From a virus (lineage: Duplodnaviria > Heunggongvirae > Uroviricota > Caudoviricetes), in IMG/VR virus record IMGVR_UViG_2713896771_000020, positions 1 to 16,979 of that record: 16,979 nt of DNA; one strand, written 5' to 3'. This document shows positions 7,438-16,979 of this stretch, piece by piece. The stretch's first letter is position 1. Every line of letters starts with the position of its first letter. The position numbers and the translations under genes were made by a program. A model generated the notes under the pieces. The model was not told the origin of the DNA. It saw only the letters and a program-made list of their open reading frames with translations, and made no database searches.

Positions 7438-7710
7438 TTAGCTGTCCTGGTAATTTCGCCATATTTCATCACCAGCACCATCCATACCCATTTCGGCATA
7501 AGTGCGATCGACCGCCTTTTTCAGGTCTCCGTAATTATCCGGCGGCTCCGGTGGCCTCTGTGCCTTCCTGGAACATTCCAGCCGTCGCATCGTAACCTGA
7601 TGCCGTTCCTTGTCTGTCTCCACCAGCAGCATGACTTCACCCCATCGCGCCGACGCCCTCCGGTAAAAGCCTTTTGCCTCGAGTTCCTCCGCTATGCGGT
7701 CATGTACCAT
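7438..7710 (-). CDS. Hypothetical 90-aa protein
   Basis: ATG at 7708-7710 with GAGGGGG Shine-Dalgarno, just downstream of the ssb stop. The longer ORF-track start overlaps ssb out of frame and is rejected. Confidence 0.5.
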   Translation of the reverse strand: MVHDRIAEELEAKGFYRRASARWGEVMLLVETDKERHQVTMRRLECSRKAQRPPEPPDNYGDLKKAVDRTYAEMGMDGAGDEIWRNYQDS

Positions 7711-7720
7711 CGTCACCCCC

Positions 7721-8131
7721 TCAGAACGGAATATCATCACCGTAGGGGTCATCGTCTCCCGCTGGTGGCTGATTACCCTGTGTGCCTGTGGTTTTGCGTC
7801 TGTTCCCGCCAGGACGTGCCGCACGGGCACTGATTACGCTGTCTGCAATAACCTGATACCCCTGCCGTGTTTCCCCGTTCTGTCCGGTCCACTGGCTTAC
7901 CTGCATCGTGCCGGATACGCTGGCAACATCGCCTTTTTGATGTTTAGCCAGGAAATCGGCCTGTTTGCCAAATGCGATAACCGATAACCATAACGTCGCC
8001 TGTCCGTCATGTGCCTGGCTGCATGGCAACGATACCGCCATACGCGCCAGAGTCATCGGTGTGCCCTTGCTGCTCTGTTTTACCAGCGGGTCGTCCACCA
8101 GGCGCCCGTAAGCTGCAATTTGTGCTGTCAT
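7721..8131 (-). CDS. ssb: Single-stranded DNA-binding protein with acidic C-terminal tip
   Basis: 136-aa ORF with SSB-like core (TLWLSVIAFGKQADFLAKHQKGDVASVSGTMQVSQW), Gly-rich linker and C-terminal DDDPYGDDIPF, the conserved SSB tail. GAGGTGG Shine-Dalgarno. Confidence 0.8.
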   Translation of the reverse strand: MTAQIAAYGRLVDDPLVKQSSKGTPMTLARMAVSLPCSQAHDGQATLWLSVIAFGKQADFLAKHQKGDVASVSGTMQVSQWTGQNGETRQGYQVIADSVISARAARPGGNRRKTTGTQGNQPPAGDDDPYGDDIPF

Positions 8132-8703: not shown

Positions 8704-8897
8704 CCTCTCACTTTTTCGCCTCACTTTTTCAAGCGTCTCACTTCGTCGCAGCTGGGATTTTCGGTTTTTCTATGTGTGTGTTTCATAAGTATTTTTTTAC
8801 CCCTCACTTTTGAGGATGTATACAGGTCGAAAAGTGAGGGAGAGCAGGCTAATTTTGGCCCTCTTTCTATCCACCTCGCTTTTGCTCCTCACTTTTA
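8704..8897. repeat. Iteron array, putative replication origin of the island
   Basis: CTCACTTTT-type repeats at 8707, 8720, 8737 (degenerate), 8803, 8874 (degenerate) and 8888, plus one inverted copy AAAAGTGAG at 8830-8838. Adjacent AT-rich tract 8783-8800. Lies immediately 3' of the replicase gene. Confidence 0.65.
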
Positions 8898-10295
8898 TAG
8901 CGGCGCTACATCATCCCCATCGATACGAATAACCCCATCTTTTTCCAGCTTGTACAGCCAGCGCCGGAAGTTTTTCATTTCATACCCCAGCTTTTTCATG
9001 TCATCACGTAACAGCGGGATCGTGCACTTGTCGCCGTTCTGTGTGCGTGAACGGATGCACCCCCATAAAGCGGTATGGTTTTCCGTCTTGTTCCCGGCCT
9101 CCTCGATGCGCTCCAGTTCAACAGGAGGGCGCGGATCATCCACCACCACCAGCGACGTGATTAATTCACCGTCAGCGTCGGTAAAAAGCTCCACCACGCG
9201 TAAGTCATATGCGGCTTCTTTGAGTTCCTCCGCGTCCTTCATTTTGGTGCATGAGATAACCAGCGCTTCGCTTCCTGCGTCCTCCCTGCGTATCCGGTAT
9301 TCAGCATCCAGCGAAGCACGAAATGCACTGGAACCGCGCGCGCCTTTCGTCTCATCCTTGCCGGAATGGTGAACCACCAGCACCGTGGCCCCTGTGCGTC
9401 GTTTCAGTTCGTCACAACCACGGATAAACGCCCCCATATCACGGGAATCATTTTCATCATTCCCACCAAAGCAACGCGCCAGCGTATCCAGAATAATCAT
9501 GCGAACAGGTTTACCCGTTTCCCGCTCCACCTGACGGGCAGCGATAACCATTTCATCAACATCAAGCGGGGCAGCCGGAAAGATGGGGCGGTTTACCAGA
9601 TACAGATTTTTCACCTGCTCATCGTGCACAACCTCCCAGGCTTTTACACGACGCGGAACACCTATACCGCCTTCACCAACCACATAGAGAACCGCACCAT
9701 GCGCAACCCTGCGGCCTCCCCACTGGCGACCAGTGGCAACATGGCACGCCCACGATCCGGCAAGGAATGATTTATAGGACCCGCTAGCCCCGTATATGCT
9801 GCATAGCGATACCGCCGGAATAATCCCCTTAACCACGTAATCCAGTTGCGTGTCGTATCCGGTAGATCCAACGCTCATCGGTAGCGTGGTTTTTCGCTGG
9901 TGGTTTTTTTCTTCCGCCGGCTCTTTCCCACGCACCCGTTCCAGGTATTCGCGCCAGTTCTCCCGCATATGGCTGTGCATCCCTTCGGGGTAATAATTCG
10001 CATCAGTTACACCCGCCGCCGCCAGCTTGTGCGCAATGGCATTAATATTTGATGGCCTGATGTGGCCTGCCTTGTACAGCCGGACACAATAGCGCCCCTC
10101 GTCGATGATTCTCAGGTCTGCCAGTTCATCCAGTTGATCATCAGCCAGCACAACGGGAGGCACATTATCGCCAGCCAGTCGCCCGTCCTGTTCCTGCCAC
10201 TGTTTCGCATGTGCCCAGGCATCACTACCCGCAAAAATAATGACTTCGGTCATCTTGTCGTAAGGCTGTTTTTTTAAGTTCGGTGCGCTTTTCAT
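8895..10295 (-). CDS. Primase/replicase-type replication initiator with RecA-like (RepA/AAA_25-type) ATPase domain
   Basis: 466-aa ORF. P-loop-like YGASGSYKS, Walker B MIILDTL, and VVHHSGKD motif typical of RepA-like helicase loaders. ATGA coupling to the upstream gene. Confidence 0.75.
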   Translation of the reverse strand: MKSAPNLKKQPYDKMTEVIIFAGSDAWAHAKQWQEQDGRLAGDNVPPVVLADDQLDELADLRIIDEGRYCVRLYKAGHIRPSNINAIAHKLAAAGVTDANYYPEGMHSHMRENWREYLERVRGKEPAEEKNHQRKTTLPMSVGSTGYDTQLDYVVKGIIPAVSLCSIYGASGSYKSFLAGSWACHVATGRQWGGRRVAHGAVLYVVGEGGIGVPRRVKAWEVVHDEQVKNLYLVNRPIFPAAPLDVDEMVIAARQVERETGKPVRMIILDTLARCFGGNDENDSRDMGAFIRGCDELKRRTGATVLVVHHSGKDETKGARGSSAFRASLDAEYRIRREDAGSEALVISCTKMKDAEELKEAAYDLRVVELFTDADGELITSLVVVDDPRPPVELERIEEAGNKTENHTALWGCIRSRTQNGDKCTIPLLRDDMKKLGYEMKNFRRWLYKLEKDGVIRIDGDDVAPL

Positions 10296-10596: not shown

Positions 10597-10830
10597 TTAT
10601 TCTCCGGTGTGCTGTTCTTTATATCTGTCGTGCAATATATCTATTTCTTGCAGTTCCATTATTACAGGATCAAGAAGCGTTATTAATGCCGTGGCAATTC
10701 TTGATTTTTGTTTGTCGCGTTCATTGTCGCCAAGTGTTTCAAGCCATATGCGCAATATTTCCAGCATGTTTTCACTGTGAGAAAGTGCAAGAAATGCGCG
10801 GTCTATTGTTTGGTGGTAAATATCACGCAT
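10597..10830 (-). CDS. Hypothetical 77-aa protein, AT-rich gene
   Basis: ATG 10828-10830 with GAGGA Shine-Dalgarno. Local GC visibly lower than flanking genes. Confidence 0.5.
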   Translation of the reverse strand: MRDIYHQTIDRAFLALSHSENMLEILRIWLETLGDNERDKQKSRIATALITLLDPVIMELQEIDILHDRYKEQHTGE

Positions 10831-11272
10831 GGCTTACATCCTCAGGAAATTTTCTTCTATAACGCGCCTCTGCCACATATTCCGCATAATCGGCGGCGAT
10901 ATTCAGTACATCAAGCCCCGTTGATTTATATTCTCTCGTGGAAAGTAAGAAAAAAGCCGCTCTAATAAGTTCTGGCATTGACGAAAGCGCATCAGCCGCA
11001 TCATCAGGAACGCCGGAAAATTCCTGTTTCAGGGAATTAAAACGATCATCACGCATAACCCCCCCCCCATTTTCACAATCAGCAACAAGAATATTTTTAG
11101 CGTCATTCAGCGACCGCGTTGCGGTGTATCGGATACATTCCAGGGCGAATAGTGTGTATTCTTCCCTTTCTTCCTTTTGTGCAAGCTCTGCTGTGCATTC
11201 AATATCAATAAGCGCGTGCATCAGCGTAGTGAGTGCGGCGGCGGCTGCGTCCGGTGTGGTTTTATTGCACAT
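10823..11272 (-). CDS. Hypothetical 149-aa protein containing a G10 homopolymer tract
   Basis: ATG 11270-11272 with GGAGGGG Shine-Dalgarno. The coding strand carries GGGGGGGGGG (plus-strand C10 at 11059-11068) encoding ENGGGV. Confidence 0.5.
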   Translation of the reverse strand: MCNKTTPDAAAAALTTLMHALIDIECTAELAQKEEREEYTLFALECIRYTATRSLNDAKNILVADCENGGGVMRDDRFNSLKQEFSGVPDDAADALSSMPELIRAAFFLLSTREYKSTGLDVLNIAADYAEYVAEARYRRKFPEDVSHA

Positions 11273-11492
11273 GTACCCCTCCGCATTTTTTTTCGTTAGA
11301 AATAAGCGTTCTTCTTTCCTGTTCATCGATCAGGAATACGCAGACCTCACCGCTAAGGCGTTTAAGTAAGCCGATGATTGCCCCTGATTCGCTGTCGGTC
11401 ATCATGCCTGGGTAATCCTCTGCCAGTGCGCAAATAACTTCGATTTGGTGGGCGCGTTCTACTGCCTGTTGTAGTGTGATTTCCTGGCTCAT
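11262..11492 (-). CDS. Hypothetical 76-aa acidic protein
   Basis: ATG 11490-11492 overlapping the stop of the upstream gene (ATGA). No recognisable motif. Confidence 0.5.
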   Translation of the reverse strand: MSQEITLQQAVERAHQIEVICALAEDYPGMMTDSESGAIIGLLKRLSGEVCVFLIDEQERRTLISNEKKCGGVHVQ

Positions 11493-11689
11493 AAGCCTAC
11501 CCCCTGACGAATACGGGCAGCGAATACCATCACGCAGCCAGCCGGGGATTGCAGGCGTGCTTCCTGTTCGCTGGTGGCCTCAATGGTAATCACGCGCGGT
11601 TGTGCAGTGCTCAGGGCGATAAAACGCCAAATGTATTTATTCAGGTTGTGCGAGTCCCGCCCTTGCGGGTGTGTGGTATGATTTCTCAT
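11489..11689 (-). CDS. Hypothetical 66-aa protein, first gene of the leftward early operon
   Basis: ATG 11687-11689 with GAGGT Shine-Dalgarno (MRNHTTHPQGRDSHNLNKYIWRF...). The ORF-track 381-aa extension upstream is non-coding promoter sequence. Confidence 0.5.
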   Translation of the reverse strand: MRNHTTHPQGRDSHNLNKYIWRFIALSTAQPRVITIEATSEQEARLQSPAGCVMVFAARIRQGVGL

Positions 11690-11885
11690 AGCTACCTCGA
11701 TACTCTCGTTATCGTTGGTGGTTAGAAGCCCCGTTACTGCTCCTACAGTGCGGGGTTTCGTCGTTTCTGCACCTTGCATTAACAAGGTGTAAGTAACTTT
11801 ATTTATAGGTGGCTTACATGTCAATGCTTTTATGTAAGACTTTTTATGTGTATATTGTCTTACACTTTCATTGAGAGGATTACAG
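11690..11885. promoter_or_regulatory. Divergent promoter/operator switch region
   Basis: Minus-strand promoter: perfect -35 TTGACA (11819-11824), 17-nt spacer, -10 TAAAGT (11796-11801). Plus-strand candidate -10 TATATT (11851-11856). Inverted repeats CTTACAT/ATGTAAG (11814-11820 and 11833-11839), TGTAAGAC/GTCTTACA (11834-11841 and 11858-11865), CACCTTG-N6-CAAGGTG (11770-11789). Confidence 0.6.
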
Positions 11886-12191
11886 ATGGCTACAGGTTCA
11901 AAAAACGCAAAATCACAATCACTGACAGCTCGGATCCCGCATGATGTTATTGAAGGCATGGAATCCGTAAAACTGGACGGTGAAAGCAACGCCGGATTCA
12001 TAGTAACCGCCATGCGCGGTGAAATCGCCCGCCGCCAGGCAGAAGGAAGCGGAGAAAACCTCCTGATTTCTTCGCTCAATGCACTGGCGCAGGTGGAAAA
12101 ACTCGGAATCAAAGCCGCCGAGGAGATCGGGCAGCTCGTCACTGTCGCACGTGAAGAACTCCAGCGCCGCAAGACTAAAGAACCAGAGTAA
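11886..12191 (+). CDS. Small ribbon-helix-helix-like DNA-binding protein, candidate island repressor
   Basis: ATG 11886 with GAGAGGA Shine-Dalgarno. N-terminal beta-strand/helix pattern SLTARIPHDVIEGMESVKLDGESNAGFIVTAMRGEIARRQ resembles Arc/CopG-type folds. Divergent from the early operon. Confidence 0.5.
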   Translation: MATGSKNAKSQSLTARIPHDVIEGMESVKLDGESNAGFIVTAMRGEIARRQAEGSGENLLISSLNALAQVEKLGIKAAEEIGQLVTVAREELQRRKTKEPE

Positions 12192-12248
12192 TCACCATCA
12201 GCGCCGTGGTGTAAGGTATTACGGCGCATTGCTATGCAGGACAACACA

Positions 12249-12422
12249 ATGACCGATAAAGAATTGACCAAAACATTATCACCGGCACGGAAAAGACGGC
12301 GCAGAAAGATAGAGCATGAATCAGAAAGATTCGCGCCATGTGCTTTTGCCCTTGAGCAATTCCTTAAAGAGTACAGGGAAAAGCGCTCATTGCAGGTATG
12401 GCAACGAACTGAACCAGACTGA
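12249..12422 (+). CDS. Hypothetical 57-aa basic protein
   Basis: ATG 12249 with AGGA Shine-Dalgarno 7 nt upstream (MTDKELTKTLSPARKRRRRK...). Second gene of the short plus-strand operon. Confidence 0.4.
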   Translation: MTDKELTKTLSPARKRRRRKIEHESERFAPCAFALEQFLKEYREKRSLQVWQRTEPD

Positions 12423-12517
12423 TTGCATTGCCCACCAGCCTGATAGCGGCTATCATCCCCGTGCTTATGTTTGGGATCACATACACAAACGGCGCAGCGG
12501 GTTATCTGTTCAGAAAG

Positions 12518-12545
12518 GCGGCTCCATTTCGGGGCCGCTTTTTTT
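12518..12545 (+). terminator. Rho-independent terminator of the plus-strand regulator operon
   Basis: 8-bp stem GCGGCTCC/GGGGCCGC with one G-U pair and loop ATTTC, followed by T7. A second AU-rich hairpin CTGAAAAAC/GTTTTTCAG lies at 12550-12579. Confidence 0.7.
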
Positions 12546-12691
12546 ATACCTGAAAAACCCCAATTTTGTTGTTTTTCAGTTTCACCAGGGCGAACGAATC
12601 CCCGCCCACGTTCTGGCGTATATTCAATCTTCATGGTTATGGCTCTGTGTTCAGATGATTGATGTGTGGCGGCTGCGTGCCGCCAGCGTGA

Positions 12692-12880
12692 TTAATGAAC
12701 TGCCTTGCAGCTATCCTTCCAGGCCAGAACCTCGGATAAAGACCAGCCAACGGAACGACCGCCAAGTTTACGACGTGATGGGAATTGTCCGGCCTTTTCC
12801 AGGCGGTAGCGGCATGAGCGGCTAAGGCCTGTTAGCTTTTCGCATTCTTTTTCACGTATAAACCGATCAGTGCTTAACAC
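12692..12880 (-). CDS. alpA: AlpA-family (excisionase-like) transcriptional regulator
   Basis: 62-aa protein; core LTGLSRSCRYRLEKAGQFPSRRKLGGRSVGWSLSEVLAWKDS matches the AlpA/Xis-like winged-helix signature. GTG start with GGGGG Shine-Dalgarno. Immediately downstream of int in the same orientation. Confidence 0.85.
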   Translation of the reverse strand: MLSTDRFIREKECEKLTGLSRSCRYRLEKAGQFPSRRKLGGRSVGWSLSEVLAWKDSCKAVH

Positions 12881-13254: not shown

Positions 13255-14484
13255 TTATTTTCTTCTGGCTACTGGTAGCGTGGTTACGTTTTCATGTGTT
13301 CCCGCCAGTATCCCTAACCGCTCCATCCACATATCCAGCACATTGCGTTTAGCATCCAGATAACGGGAATGATTATAAACTCGCTGCATTCCTGGCATCT
13401 GGTGGCCTGTAAGCTGCTCCACGACATGCGGATCAACGCCTAAATCGTTCAGCATGGTTGTAAAGGTGCGCCGGATGTCATGCAGTGACCAGTGAGGATG
13501 ATTAAGCCTCCTGTGCGCTAATCTTCCATACTGCGATACGCTGGCCTCCTGTTTCACTTCCCCCAGCAATAAGCCCGTGTGCCTGTTCTGCTCCACCAGC
13601 TGCGTGACGAACGGCAGGATCGCTTCCGGTATGGGCCGGAATATTGCGACCTTCGTTTTGCTGTGCTCCTTCGGAACGGTCCATAGCATTTCCGTAAAAT
13701 CCCACTCCCCGATCTCCGATAGCCTCAGTTCTACCGTCCTGGCTCCGAAGACAATCAGGAGGCGGATTAACGCGACGTAGTAAGGGGAAAATATTTTTTT
13801 GTCCAGTGCCTGCAATAATTCGCCAAGTTCTTTGTTACTTAAGACACGTTCGCTTATATCCGGTTTTTTCCCAACGTCCGCCACGTTCAGATCGTCCAGA
13901 ACGTTGCTGATTGCATAGCGCCGCCTACGGCAGAACTTAAGCGCCTGTTTGCACGCCTGTAGCACGAATCCGGCAGTAACAGGCGTTCGCTTTGCCACCT
14001 GGTCAAAACAGGCCAGCCAGTGCCGTAGCTCGCATTTATCCAGCGGCATAGCACCAATCTGCTGTATTACGTGATTATTAAGTCGCCTTTTCAGGGCGAT
14101 ATAATCCACGCGGTTTTCCTTTACGTAATACTCAAGCCAGTAGGTGAGCGCATCGCCAACCGTTACGGGCTTTAACGCTTCCTGTACGGTGTAATTCATC
14201 TCATGACGTGGATTTTTCCCCTCAGCCAGCCATGTGCGACACTGTGCGGCTTTTTCCCTGGCTGCTTTCAGGCTCAGATCAGGATAACTTCCCAGCTTAA
14301 TGCGTTCGGGTCGTGTCTCCCTTCCCGTTCCGGCCCTGTATGTGAAATACCAGGTCAATTTCCCTGATGTTAAATATTTCACGCTCAGGTTTCCGCCATC
14401 ACTATAAAACGTGTTTTTCTCCGCTGGCTTACCATGAAGTTTCCTTAGCAAGGTATCGCTCAGTTTGTTCATTGCTCTGCTCAC
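13255..14484 (-). CDS. int: Tyrosine site-specific integrase (P4-like family)
   Basis: 409-aa ORF; C-terminal catalytic region with HDIRRTF ... LTGHQ ... RVYNHSRY (R, H-x-x-R, Y). GTG start 14482-14484 with AGAGGGGG Shine-Dalgarno; alternative ATG at 14472. Adjacent to the insertion junction. Confidence 0.9.
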   Translation of the reverse strand: MSRAMNKLSDTLLRKLHGKPAEKNTFYSDGGNLSVKYLTSGKLTWYFTYRAGTGRETRPERIKLGSYPDLSLKAAREKAAQCRTWLAEGKNPRHEMNYTVQEALKPVTVGDALTYWLEYYVKENRVDYIALKRRLNNHVIQQIGAMPLDKCELRHWLACFDQVAKRTPVTAGFVLQACKQALKFCRRRRYAISNVLDDLNVADVGKKPDISERVLSNKELGELLQALDKKIFSPYYVALIRLLIVFGARTVELRLSEIGEWDFTEMLWTVPKEHSKTKVAIFRPIPEAILPFVTQLVEQNRHTGLLLGEVKQEASVSQYGRLAHRRLNHPHWSLHDIRRTFTTMLNDLGVDPHVVEQLTGHQMPGMQRVYNHSRYLDAKRNVLDMWMERLGILAGTHENVTTLPVARRK

Positions 14485-14507
14485 GTTTTACCCCCTCTTT
14501 ACGAAAA

Positions 14508-14531
14508 AGTGACTACACCAGTGACTACACC
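14508..14531. repeat. Perfect tandem 12-bp direct repeat AGTGACTACACC x2 in the int promoter region
   Basis: Copies at 14508-14519 and 14520-14531, about 25 bp upstream of the int start codon. Confidence 0.9.
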
Positions 14532-14538
14532 GATCGTT

Positions 14539-14574
14539 GCACAAAGGGCTACAACGTGAAACAAGCTGGAACAA
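14539..14574 (-). repeat. Four 10-bp-phased TTGT repeats upstream of int
   Basis: Plus strand has ACAA at 14541, 14551, 14561 and 14571. Minus strand reads TTGTTC, TTGTTT, TTGTAG, TTGTGC at exact 10-bp intervals. Confidence 0.8.
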
Positions 14575-14660
14575 GGAAAATCACAAATCTGTTGATAATC
14601 AAAAACATAATGCACAGCCTGAAACATTATGAAACAGCAAAAAACACTAAATGATAAAAT

Positions 14661-15566
14661 GCTGTTATTCTTAACCCGCTGGTGCAACACATGGTCCGCT
14701 GGCGAGTGCCGCGTGTACTGGCGGTGTCGATTTTGATGACCATCATCGTGATGGCGATGGTGTTGCTATTAGCTTATCTGGGTTCCGCGCTCAACGAGTT
14801 GACGCGGACGTTACCGCAATATCGCAACTCTATTATGACGCCGCTGCAAGCTCTTGAGCCGTTGTTGCAACGCGTAGGGATTGACGTCTCAGTTGACCAG
14901 CTGGCGCATTACATTGATCCGAACGCGGCGATGACGTTGCTCACCAACTTATTGACGCAGTTATCTAATGCCATGTCATCAATATTTTTATTGCTGCTGA
15001 CGGTGCTGTTTATGCTGCTCGAAGTGCCACAATTGCCCGGAAAATTTCAGCAAATGATGGCGCGTCCGGTTGAAGGGATGGCGGCGATTCAACGTGCAAT
15101 TGACAGTGTTTCTCATTATCTGGTGCTGAAAACAGCCATCAGCATCATCACCGGCCTGGTCGCCTGGGCGATGCTCGCCGCACTCGATGTTCGCTTCGCT
15201 TTTGTCTGGGGATTGCTGGCCTTTGCGCTTAATTACATCCCTAATATTGGTTCAGTTCTCGCGGCAATCCCCCCTATCGCTCAGGTACTGGTGTTTAATG
15301 GCTTCTACGAAGCGTTGCTGGTGCTGGCGGGATATCTGCTGATTAATCTGGTCTTCGGCAATATTCTGGAGCCGCGCATCATGGGACGTGGGCTGGGGCT
15401 TTCCACATTGGTGGTATTTTTGTCGTTGATTTTTTGGGGATGGTTGTTAGGACCGGTGGGTATGCTGCTTTCCGTGCCGTTAACAATTATTGTCAAAATT
15501 GCGCTTGAACAAACAGCGGGAGGTCAAAGCATCGCCGTTCTGTTAAGCGATCTCAATAAAGAGTGG
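14661..15566 (+). pseudogene. tqsA: 5'-truncated tqsA (AI-2 exporter, AI-2E family), disrupted by the island
   Basis: Translation from 14661 reads [22 protein letters not shown]... through the conserved AI-2E transporter body. An in-frame stop at 14652-14654 and AT-rich island DNA lie immediately upstream, so the N-terminal transmembrane segment and promoter are absent. 3' limit set by the expected stop near 15564, which is TGG in this sequence. Confidence 0.7.
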
Positions 15567-15584
15567 CGGCCTCCGCAGAGGCCG
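15567..15584. terminator. Convergent intergenic hairpin between tqsA and pntB
   Basis: 7-bp stem CGGCCTC/GAGGCCG with loop CGCA, between the expected tqsA end and the pntB stop at 15591. No strong U-run. Confidence 0.4.
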
Positions 15585-15590
15585 TCAGGG

Positions 15591-16979
<1,389 letters not shown>

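What the first reader, a model, noticed from the sequence alone, without database searches (positions are those of the whole stretch)
11059..11068. G10 homopolymer tract inside a coding sequence (possible phase-variable switch)
The 149-aa ORF contains ten consecutive G on its coding strand (C10 on the plus strand), encoding GGG. Tracts of this length are prone to slipped-strand changes that would frameshift the gene, and an ATG sits just downstream. It could be a stochastic on/off switch, or a sequencing or assembly weak point.
Basis: seen in the sequence. Interest (0 to 1): 0.45.

Follow-up and report, generated by a model that had tools for sequence, protein, structure and literature searches.

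The report
Slippage-prone G-run joining two satellite genes
The ten-G run is real and varies in length between E. coli strains, but it sits at the boundary of two small genes of a phage-satellite island, so changing its length fuses or separates two proteins rather than switching one gene on and off.

Summary
C10 lies at 11059-11068 and is G10 on the coding minus strand. It is the only G/C run longer than 6 in the window, against about 0.06 expected by chance.

The tract is not inside one ancestral gene. It lies at the junction of two small genes in the AlpA-side early operon of a capsid-forming PICI-like satellite.
- G8/G11: a 73-aa and a 77-aa gene overlapping by ATGCGTGA. This is the commonest state.
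- G9/G12: the upstream gene gains a 12-codon tail, which PGAP flags as 'frameshifted'.
- G7/G10: an in-frame fusion. This window has the 149-aa fusion.

In 96 homologous loci the tract runs from 7 to 12 (C7 24, C8 37+5 interrupted, C9 19, C10 5, C11 2+1, 12-nt interrupted 3). Control homopolymers in the same loci barely vary. Two O111 genomes are identical over 10,096 nt except C10 versus C9. By contrast, every O157:H7 genome sampled has C7.

So this is a genuine slipped-strand hot spot acting on evolutionary timescales. It also serves as the downstream gene's G-rich Shine-Dalgarno element. I found no evidence of a rapid, selected on/off switch. It is not an assembly artefact: the exact fused protein is indexed in 542 blocks of the assembly collection. 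The function of both proteins is unknown.

The parts
11059..11068 (-). G10 homopolymer (C10 on the plus strand). It encodes Gly-Gly-Gly plus the first base of Val in this allele. It is the slippage-prone element and the predicted Shine-Dalgarno sequence of the downstream gene.
   Evidence: presence, rarity. (length polymorphism against invariant control runs). (anti-SD duplex -11.1 kcal/mol, top ~1% of random 20-mers, saturating at n>=7).
10823..11272 (-). The 149-aa fused ORF present in this window, the G10 in-frame state.
   Evidence: Matches phrog_2512, the 154-aa 'fusion' family. The exact protein is indexed in 542 blocks of the assembly collection, and the 4 loci read back all carry G10.
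11069..11272 (-). Upstream gene module (73-aa type, phrog_5146). The N-terminal half of the fusion, predicted to be a helical hairpin.
   Evidence: Annotated as a separate 73-aa CDS in G8 relatives L003 and L006. A homologous 73-aa gene stands alone in L005, separated from the downstream gene by a 121-aa gene. AF2 pLDDT about 78 for residues 9-67.
10823..11056 (-). Downstream gene module (77 aa, phrog_24341; WP_001204078.1 in RefSeq relatives) with its own ATG at 11056-11054.
   Evidence: separate CDS. (own PHROG family). (77- or 73-aa ORF intact in nearly all of 96 loci at every tract length).
11049..11056 (-). ATGCGTGA start/stop overlap motif. The TGA (11051-11049) is the upstream gene's stop codon when the tract is G8 or G11, and is out of frame here.
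   Evidence: in-silico tract series. (8-nt overlaps annotated in G8 loci).
11029..11031 (-). Latent TGA used by the upstream gene when the tract is G9 or G12, giving the tail ...GGGLCVMIVLIP*.
   Evidence: L002/L098 (C9) are annotated 'frameshifted'.
10823..10830 (-). A second copy of the ATGCGTGA overlap, at the next junction (77-aa gene to the following 77-aa gene, 10597-10830). It shows that this overlap is the operon's normal junction design.
   Evidence: sequence and ORF coordinates. (8-nt overlaps annotated in all relatives).
11286..11293 (-). A8 run (T8 on the plus strand) in the last codons of the preceding 76-aa gene. It is a second junctional homopolymer, and A7 alleles fuse that gene to the next.
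   Evidence: Proteins P0003 (221 aa), P0007 (220 aa) and P0019 (217 aa) read ...ISNEKNAEGYMCNKTT.... The run is 8 in 20 loci and 7 in 2.

Best explanation
The G-run lies at the boundary between two small genes of unknown function. These genes sit in the early, AlpA-side operon of an E. coli capsid-forming PICI-like phage satellite. The run has two roles at once. It supplies the last Gly codons of the upstream 73-aa gene, and it is the G-rich Shine-Dalgarno element placed 2 nt before the ATG of the downstream 77-aa gene.

Because it is a long G:C homopolymer, replication slippage adds or removes single G's. This moves the upstream reading frame among three configurations.
(i) G8/G11: two genes joined by the operon's standard ATGCGTGA start/stop overlap.
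(ii) G9/G12: two genes, with the upstream one extended by 12 out-of-frame codons.
(iii) G7/G10/G13: an in-frame fusion of both proteins through a Gly-Gly(-Gly)-Val linker. This window is in state (iii).

Shown here:
- the anatomy of the junction;
- the three coding outcomes;
- natural length polymorphism, including inside one clone;
- the intactness of both halves in all states.

Inferred:
- the mechanism is DNA slipped-strand mispairing;
- the run acts as an SD;
- the states are roughly neutral alternatives that change on micro-evolutionary timescales, perhaps around 1e-7 to 1e-5 per generation and faster for longer runs, rather than a fast selected switch.
For: Junction anatomy:
- RefSeq annotates two CDSs overlapping by 8 nt in C8 loci.
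- It annotates a 'frameshifted' pseudogene in C9 loci.
- It annotates one fused CDS in C7 and C10 loci.
- The in-silico series n=5-13 reproduces exactly these outcomes.

Independence of the halves:
- L005 has a 121-aa gene between them, and the 77-aa gene is again preceded by GGGGGG-TAAAC-ATGCGTGA.
- PHROGs holds separate families for the fusion, the upstream half and the downstream half.

Hypervariability:
- In 96 loci: C7 24, C8 37 (+5 interrupted), C9 19, C10 5, C11 2 (+1 interrupted), 12-nt interrupted 3.
- Mixed lengths occur within groups sharing identical 250+250-nt flanks.
- Control runs in the same loci are nearly fixed: A6 50/50, T7 28/28, T8 20/22.
- O111 2009C-3675 (C10) and O111 RM9322 (C9) are identical over 10,096 nt apart from the tract.
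- Fused proteins occur in length pairs 144/145, 148/149, 154/155 and 220/221, meaning GG versus GGG on several backgrounds.

Realness:
- Duplicate assemblies of CFT073, Nissle 1917 and ATCC 25922 give the same alignment span, implying C8.
- The exact 149-aa protein is in 542 index blocks, and the 4 loci read back all have G10.

SD role:
- Predicted anti-SD duplex is -11.1 kcal/mol, the strongest start in the operon.

Not a fast switch:
- All 34 sampled exact-match rows, mostly labelled O157:H7 or O145, show C7. This extrapolates to about 225 genomes.
- Three pairs identical over 2 kb agree on tract length.

No frame preference:
- Frames are 30% fused, 47% split and 23% extended, in a smooth distribution centred on 8.

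Literature:
- Indel rate rises exponentially with run length in E. coli, and 8-bp G:C runs are already outlier hot spots (PMC8510543).
Against: - No reads or single-colony data were available, so the switching rate for G10 itself is not measured. It could be high enough to count as phase variation.
- The SD role rests on predicted pairing only. The 2-nt gap between run and ATG is short, so only the 5' part of the run is at a typical SD distance.
- Neutrality is inferred from an unweighted, phylogenetically non-independent length distribution. Balancing selection or bet-hedging would produce a similar picture.
- Most tract lengths in complete genomes were inferred from alignment spans. Only 11 loci were read directly.
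- Some of the length variation in draft assemblies could still be homopolymer miscalls.
Confidence: 0.7

Rival explanations
1. This is a true contingency (phase-variable) locus. The satellite uses rapid, reversible G-tract slippage to switch a subpopulation between two separate proteins and one fusion protein. That would tune its interaction with helper phages or the host as a bet-hedging strategy.
For: - All three frame states are common in nature, and both halves stay intact in all of them.
- Changes recur on identical backgrounds and within a clone.
- A few alleles are interrupted (CCACCCCC, CCCACCCC, CCCCCCCTCCCC), as seen for 'locked' contingency tracts.
- A second junctional homopolymer (A8) also generates fusions.
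Against: - The O157:H7 genomes sampled are uniformly C7.
- Duplicate assemblies of laboratory strains agree.
- The length distribution is smooth and unimodal, with no 3-nt periodicity or frame enrichment.
- E. coli has active mismatch repair, which suppresses 1-nt loops (general knowledge).
- No function is known for either protein.
- The AF2 model gives no sign that the fusion creates a new fold.
Confidence: 0.13
2. The 149-aa fused ORF is the real, ancestral gene. Tract lengths that are not 1 mod 3 are then simple frameshift knock-outs or pseudogenes: an ON/OFF switch or decay.
For: - PGAP labels the C9 allele 'frameshifted'.
- Fused forms are numerous and widespread, with clusters on 150-260 contigs.
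- phrog_2512 models the fusion.
Against: - The split G8 layout is the most frequent.
- It uses the same ATGCGTGA overlap as the next junction in the operon.
- In L005 the downstream half has its own ATG and strong SD and stands behind an unrelated 121-aa gene. There the upstream-type gene ends on its own stop, with a normal AGGAGG SD for the next gene.
- The downstream ORF is intact in split alleles. Decay after inactivation would not predict this.
Confidence: 0.08
3. This is a recoding site. RNA-polymerase slippage or ribosomal frameshifting on the G-run produces split and fused products from a single allele. The genomic tract length would then matter little.
For: - A long homopolymer sits exactly where two ORFs meet, and fusion products of adjacent ORFs are the classic output of recoding (PMC5009743).
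- Tolerance of all three genomic frames would be expected if every allele yields a mixture.
Against: - Documented bacterial transcriptional slippage involves runs of about 9 A or T, not G (PMC5009743).
- Programmed sites keep a conserved genomic frame and motif, whereas here the length and frame vary freely.
- G-rich runs are not canonical X XXY YYZ slippery heptamers (general knowledge).
- Nothing was tested at the RNA or protein level.
Confidence: 0.06
4. The run length in this window is a sequencing or assembly error.
For: G/C homopolymers of about 10 are error-prone on several platforms, and no reads are available for this window.
Against: - G10 gives a clean in-frame ORF.
- Six complete genomes have the identical 96-nt context with C10, and 15 more have it with one SNP.
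- The exact 149-aa protein is in 542 index blocks. Of the 4 loci read, all have G10, and 3 have a gene identical to the window's at DNA level.
- Other homopolymers in the same loci are stable.
Confidence: 0.03

Closest known systems
Poly-G contingency tracts that split or fuse adjacent ORFs in Campylobacter jejuni and Helicobacter pylori (for example cj0031/cj0032). Recalled from general knowledge, not tested here.
   Same: A G:C homopolymer of about 8-11 at the point where two annotated ORFs meet. Tract length decides whether they read as one protein or two, and strains differ in length.
   Different: In those organisms one state is functional and the other is a null. Switching is fast (about 1e-3 to 1e-4) because mismatch repair is absent or weak, and phenotypes are known. 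Here both halves are stand-alone genes with their own starts, the host is mismatch-repair-proficient E. coli, clones such as O157:H7 are fixed, and no phenotype is known.
Homopolymeric-tract microevolution in Bordetella pertussis (PMC1891110)
   Same: Tracts that are polymorphic between strains of a clonal species. Changes are seen mainly on evolutionary rather than single-culture timescales.
   Different: This is a different organism and different genes. I did not read the paper in depth and cite it only from its title and abstract as a comparator.
Translationally coupled overlapping gene pairs (ATGnnTGA-type overlaps) in phage and satellite operons
   Same: In the G8 state the two genes overlap by ATGCGTGA. 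The same motif joins the next pair (10823-10830), and an SD lies inside the upstream coding sequence.
   Different: In this window the overlap is abolished because the upstream frame reads through. The SD is an unstable homopolymer instead of AGGAGG.
Transcriptional-slippage fusions such as Shigella spa13/spa32 and mxiE, or IS-element orfAB (PMC5009743)
   Same: A homopolymer at an ORF boundary with an alternative fused product.
   Different: Those use A/T runs with a conserved genomic frame, and the change is made in RNA. Here the change is in the DNA, the run is G, and the genomic frame is not conserved.
EcCIEDL933 (a prototype cfPICI) and EcCICFT073 (a PICI) of E. coli (PMC10085698, PMC11773190)
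   Same: The same early-region gene family and junction. The O157:H7 genomes sampled carry the C7 fused form. CFT073 carries the C8 split form (inferred from alignment span). The window's island has the cfPICI gene set.
   Different: The papers I searched and read did not mention the tract or the split/fused polymorphism. I did not check that the O157:H7 and CFT073 matches lie inside those named islands. The window's island sits at tqsA/pntB, as in strain 042.

Membership tests
Simple-sequence-repeat contingency locus (slipped-strand phase variation) | A homopolymer of about 7 or more within an ORF or promoter | tested here: met
   G10 at 11059-11068 inside the 149-aa ORF.
Simple-sequence-repeat contingency locus (slipped-strand phase variation) | Tract length polymorphic among strains on otherwise identical sequence | tested here: met
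   Lengths of 7-12 across 96 loci. Mixed lengths within identical 500-nt flank groups. O111 C10 versus C9 as the sole difference in 10,096 nt.
Simple-sequence-repeat contingency locus (slipped-strand phase variation) | A length change alters the protein product | tested here: met
   Fusion, split and extended outcomes in silico, mirrored by RefSeq annotation. However, the outcome is not a loss of either ORF.
Simple-sequence-repeat contingency locus (slipped-strand phase variation) | High-frequency reversible switching within a clonal population (about 1e-2 to 1e-5 per generation) | tested here: inconclusive
   No reads were available. Indirectly, all sampled O157:H7 genomes are C7 and same-strain duplicate assemblies agree, which argues against fast switching at n=7-8. 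O111 shows both C9 and C10, so longer runs do change within a clone.
Simple-sequence-repeat contingency locus (slipped-strand phase variation) | The switch controls a selectable phenotype | not testable with these tools
   Both proteins have no Pfam or NCBIfam match and only 'unknown function' PHROGs. The AF2 model is low confidence.
Capsid-forming PICI (cfPICI) phage satellite (context of the tract) | Integrase, AlpA-type regulator and replication protein at one end | tested here: met
   Integrase at 13255-14484 (PF00589, PF13356). AlpA at 12692-12880 (PF05930, E=5e-18). RepA/AAA_25 helicase at 8895-10295.
Capsid-forming PICI (cfPICI) phage satellite (context of the tract) | Own capsid and packaging module: major capsid, protease, portal, adaptor/closure, HNH, TerS, TerL | tested here: met
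Capsid-forming PICI (cfPICI) phage satellite (context of the tract) | No tail or holin genes (forbidden components in SatelliteFinder; PMC10085698) | tested here: inconclusive
   None of the window ORFs I screened hit tail or lysis families. However, the island's left end (before position 1) is outside the window, and small ORFs were not scanned exhaustively.
Capsid-forming PICI (cfPICI) phage satellite (context of the tract) | Induction and transfer dependent on a helper phage | not testable with these tools
   This needs an experiment.
Programmed recoding site (transcriptional slippage or ribosomal frameshift) | A conserved slippery motif with a conserved genomic frame relationship of the two ORFs | tested here: not met
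   All three genomic frame relationships occur at 23-47% each. Documented bacterial slippage runs are A/T (PMC5009743).
Translationally coupled overlapping gene pair | The upstream stop overlaps the downstream start | tested here: not met
   This is not met in this window, where G10 reads through. It is met in the G8 relatives L003, L005 and L006.

The most novel reading that the evidence does not exclude
The G-run, possibly together with the A8 run one junction upstream, is a genuine satellite-encoded contingency system. By stochastically fusing or separating small early proteins, it would diversify how a PICI or cfPICI population responds to different helper phages. This would be, to my knowledge, the first repeat-mediated phase-variable module reported in a phage satellite, and a rare one in mismatch-repair-proficient E. 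coli.
Probability: 0.1. Interest if true: 0.65.

Novelty: new member of a known kind. Interest (0 to 1): 0.35.

Why it matters
For annotation and comparative work, these PICI and cfPICI 'hypothetical proteins' appear in databases as three families (fusion, N-half, C-half) and as 'frameshifted pseudogenes'. All of them are one locus in different tract states. Recognising this avoids false gene gain/loss calls.

Reference strains also differ at this site. The O157:H7 genomes sampled carry the fused form. CFT073, Nissle and O55:H7 carry the split form. O111 carries both C9 and C10. Anyone dissecting the early region of these satellites should therefore know which state their strain has.

Biologically, it is a clean natural example of a G:C-run hot spot in E. 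coli. Its consequence is protein fusion or fission rather than gene loss. It is also a candidate, still unproven, for a satellite-encoded stochastic switch.

Tried and rejected
- Pfam and NCBIfam gave no hit for either half or the neighbouring small genes. PHROGs gave only 'unknown function' families.
- AlphaFold2 on a 47-sequence alignment of fused forms gave mean pLDDT 60. Only the N-terminal helical hairpin was moderately confident, and there was no inter-half packing. I judged it too weak for a fold search and ran none.
- The genome-contig scan (one genome per species) found the junction only once, in Shigella flexneri. So there was no cross-genus comparison with these exact flanks.
- The ±1-kb flank pair analysis yielded few near-identical pairs because the region is highly mosaic. 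It gives only a rough rate.
- The EcCIMP1 paper (PMC11773190) does not mention a frameshift or homopolymer.
- The first attempt to search PMC8510543 failed on term syntax and was repeated.
- I considered a G-quadruplex or terminator role and rejected it, because a single G-run with no partner runs and no T-tract fits neither.
- The metagenome scan was not used. It would add loci but no read-level heterogeneity.

Full report
**1. Observation**

The plus strand at 11059-11068 is C10. On the minus, coding strand it reads GAA AAT GGG GGG GGG GTT ATG CGT, which is ...E N G G G V M R.... It is the only G or C run longer than 6 in the 16,979-nt window. Dinucleotide-preserving shuffles give 0.06 such runs on average, and 10 of 200 shuffles gave at least one.

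It runs from ATG 11272 to the stop at 10823 on the minus strand. Its start, M(C/H)N(K/N)TTPDAAA, is conserved across homologues and follows a GGAGGGG Shine-Dalgarno sequence.

**2. Context**

The window carries a phage-satellite island with the following parts.
- Integrase at 13255-14484.
- AlpA at 12692-12880.
- An Icd-like gene, followed by a chain of small overlapping genes.
- A DUF4222 gene and a RepA/AAA_25 helicase at 8895-10295.
- SSB and PerC.
- HK97-type capsid, prohead protease, portal, head closure, adaptor, HNH, TerS and TerL.

None of the ORFs I screened hit tail or lysis families. This is the gene set by which capsid-forming PICIs are defined (PMC10085698). The island lies at tqsA/pntB, as does a 97.6%-identical island in E. 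coli 042. The tract lies in the AlpA-side early operon.

**3. What the tract really is**

RefSeq annotation of homologous loci shows that the '149-aa gene' is two genes in many strains. In C8 loci there is a 73-aa CDS and a 77-aa CDS overlapping by 8 nt (L003, L006). A C9 locus is flagged 'frameshifted' (L002/L098). C7 and C10 loci carry one fused CDS (L004, L001, L097, L100).

Re-building the sequence with 5-13 G's reproduces this exactly.
- n=8/11 ends the upstream gene at ...GGG(G)YA*, using the TGA of ATGCGTGA.
- n=9/12 adds the tail LCVMIVLIP*.
- n=7/10/13 reads through into the downstream gene.

The halves are independent modules. In L005 a 121-aa gene lies between them. There the upstream-type gene ends on its own stop, with an ordinary AGGAGG SD for the next gene. 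The 77-aa gene is again preceded by a G-rich SD, GGGGGG-TAAAC-ATGCGTGA. PHROGs even holds three families for the fusion, the N-half and the C-half. The same ATGCGTGA overlap joins the next gene pair at 10823-10830. So the split G8 layout is the operon's standard design, and the fusion is derived.

**4. Is the tract hypervariable?**

Yes. A pattern scan with fixed flanks recovered 89 IMG/VR loci and one Shigella locus. Together with the window and five E. coli genomes this gives 96 loci.

| Tract | Loci |
|---|---|
| C7 | 24 |
| C8 | 37, plus 5 interrupted 8-mers |
| C9 | 19 |
| C10 | 5 |
| C11 | 2, plus 1 interrupted |
| Interrupted 12-mer | 3 |

Groups of loci with identical 250-nt flanks on both sides contain mixed lengths, for example C7×4/C8×2, C10/C9, C9/C8 and C7/C9.

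As an internal control, other homopolymers in the same loci are almost fixed: A6 50/50, T7 28/28, T8 20/22. Generic sequencing noise therefore does not explain the variation.

Fused proteins occur in one-residue length pairs on at least four backgrounds, 144/145, 148/149, 154/155 and 220/221. That is GG versus GGG, or G7 versus G10.

The cleanest case is within the O111 clone. 2009C-3675 (C10) and RM9322 (C9) are identical over 10,096 nt except for one C in the tract. A third O111 genome has C10 plus one SNP. Alignment spans indicate C9 in at least ten O111 assemblies and C10 in three, including genomes from the same accession series.

**5. How fast does it change?**

It is not obviously at phase-variation speed. 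With a strict full-length search of the O157/O55-type allele, all 34 sampled exact-match rows had C7, the fused state. These rows were mostly labelled O157:H7 or O145, and they extrapolate to about 225 genomes. No O157:H7-labelled genome in any listing had another length. The related O55:H7 has C8, and O145 contains both C7 and C6 by alignment span.

Duplicate assemblies of CFT073, Nissle 1917 and ATCC 25922 all give the same alignment span, implying C8. With ±1-kb flanks, 0 of 3 identical pairs were discordant, 1 of 3 pairs with 1-2 differences, and 4 of 4 pairs with 3-10 differences.

By inference, the tract changes roughly as often as a few substitutions accumulate in 2 kb. That is some hundreds to thousands of times the per-site substitution rate. 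It is a hot spot, but probably orders of magnitude below classical contingency loci, at least for 7-8-mers. Literature supports an exponential rise of indel rate with run length in E. coli, with 8-bp G:C runs already outliers (PMC8510543). So G10, the state in this window, should be the least stable of the common alleles. The rate itself was not measurable here.

**6. Consequences and mechanism**

Both half-ORFs are intact in nearly all 96 loci whatever the tract length. The frame states are all common: fused 30%, split 47%, extended 23%. They form a smooth distribution centred on 8 with no three-base periodicity.

This fits tolerance of all three states. It does not fit an ON/OFF gene, and it does not by itself show selection for switching.

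The G-run gives the strongest predicted anti-SD pairing of any start in this operon. The value is -11.1 kcal/mol, in the top ~1% of random 20-mers, and it saturates at n>=7. Neighbouring genes also use G-rich SDs. I therefore infer that the run's primary role is ribosome binding for the 77-aa gene, and that its expansion made it slippage-prone.

An AlphaFold2 model of the fusion is weak (pLDDT 60). It shows a helical hairpin for the N-half, a low-confidence Gly linker and C-half, and no joint fold. That is consistent with two modules on a flexible linker. Function remains unknown, with no Pfam or NCBIfam hits.

**7. Rivals**

- Adaptive phase variation is not excluded (about 0.13). It lacks rate, phenotype and frame-bias support.
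- The reading 'one real gene, with other lengths as knock-outs' is contradicted by L005, by the shared junction design and by the intact downstream ORFs.
- Programmed recoding is unlikely. The genomic frame is not conserved, and known bacterial polymerase slippage uses A/T runs (PMC5009743).
- An assembly artefact is very unlikely. The identical 96-nt context with C10 occurs in six complete genomes, and with one SNP in 15 more. The exact 149-aa protein is indexed in 542 blocks. All four loci read back have G10, and three have a gene identical to the window's at DNA level.

**8. Comparison and novelty**

Mechanistically this is slipped-strand homopolymer polymorphism, a known kind. The closest analogues are poly-G tracts that fuse or split adjacent ORFs in Campylobacter and Helicobacter (from general knowledge), and homopolymer microevolution in Bordetella (PMC1891110).

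It differs in four ways. It joins two stand-alone genes rather than interrupting one. It doubles as an SD. It sits in a phage satellite of mismatch-repair-proficient E. coli. It appears stable within some clones. The papers I searched and read (PMC11773190, PMC10085698) did not mention it.

I rate it a new member of a known kind, with moderate-to-low interest (0.35). It is useful mainly for annotation and for people working on the early region of PICIs and cfPICIs. There is a roughly 10% chance that it is a genuine satellite contingency switch, which would be considerably more interesting.

Noticed in passing
window 11286-11293 (T8 on plus, A8 on the coding strand): A second homopolymer sits at the previous gene junction, in the last codons of the 76-aa gene at 11262-11492. 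A7 alleles fuse that gene to the next. With G7/G10 they give triple fusions of 217-221 aa (P0003 on 52 contigs, P0007, P0019). The run was 8 in 20 loci and 7 in 2.
   Followed up: partly
window 10823-10830 and 11049-11056; BLAST breakpoints: The same 8-nt start/stop overlap ATGCGTGA occurs at two consecutive junctions. Most small genes in this chain end in ...HA*. Many E. coli alignments break at the gene junction (query position 234). This suggests that gene modules are shuffled by recombination at these conserved junctions.
   Followed up: partly
L001 (E. coli CD45) versus window ~11150-11180: There is a 9-nt tandem duplication in the upstream half (KEEREEREEYT versus KEEREEYT). It accounts for the 9-base length difference of the closest full-length hit.
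   Followed up: no
window 11489-12634 (-) and 11871-12191 (+): The mechanical 381-aa ORF is probably not one gene. Only its last ~90 residues match an Icd-like/'transcriptional repressor' PHROG. RefSeq relatives annotate a ~66-aa Icd-like gene plus pseudogene fragments. A YlcI/YnfO-family gene lies on the opposite strand inside it.
   Followed up: partly
window 13255-16979: The island is integrated next to a truncated tqsA with pntB beyond, as in E. coli 042. The related O111 island uses tRNA-Pro next to yejM. ARAGORN found no tRNA gene in this window.
   Followed up: partly
window 7438-7830 (-): A PerC-family transcriptional activator (PF06069, E=8e-44) lies between the replication and capsid modules. 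PerC homologues in E. coli PICIs have been linked to regulation of the LEE pathogenicity island (PMC11773190).
   Followed up: no
E. coli complete genomes: By alignment span, O145 genomes split into C7 (RM13516, RM10425-C1, RM8843-C1, FWSEC0002) and C6 (RM8995-C1, RM12367-C1). This is a possible second within-serogroup slippage event, but I did not verify it by reading the sequences.
   Followed up: no
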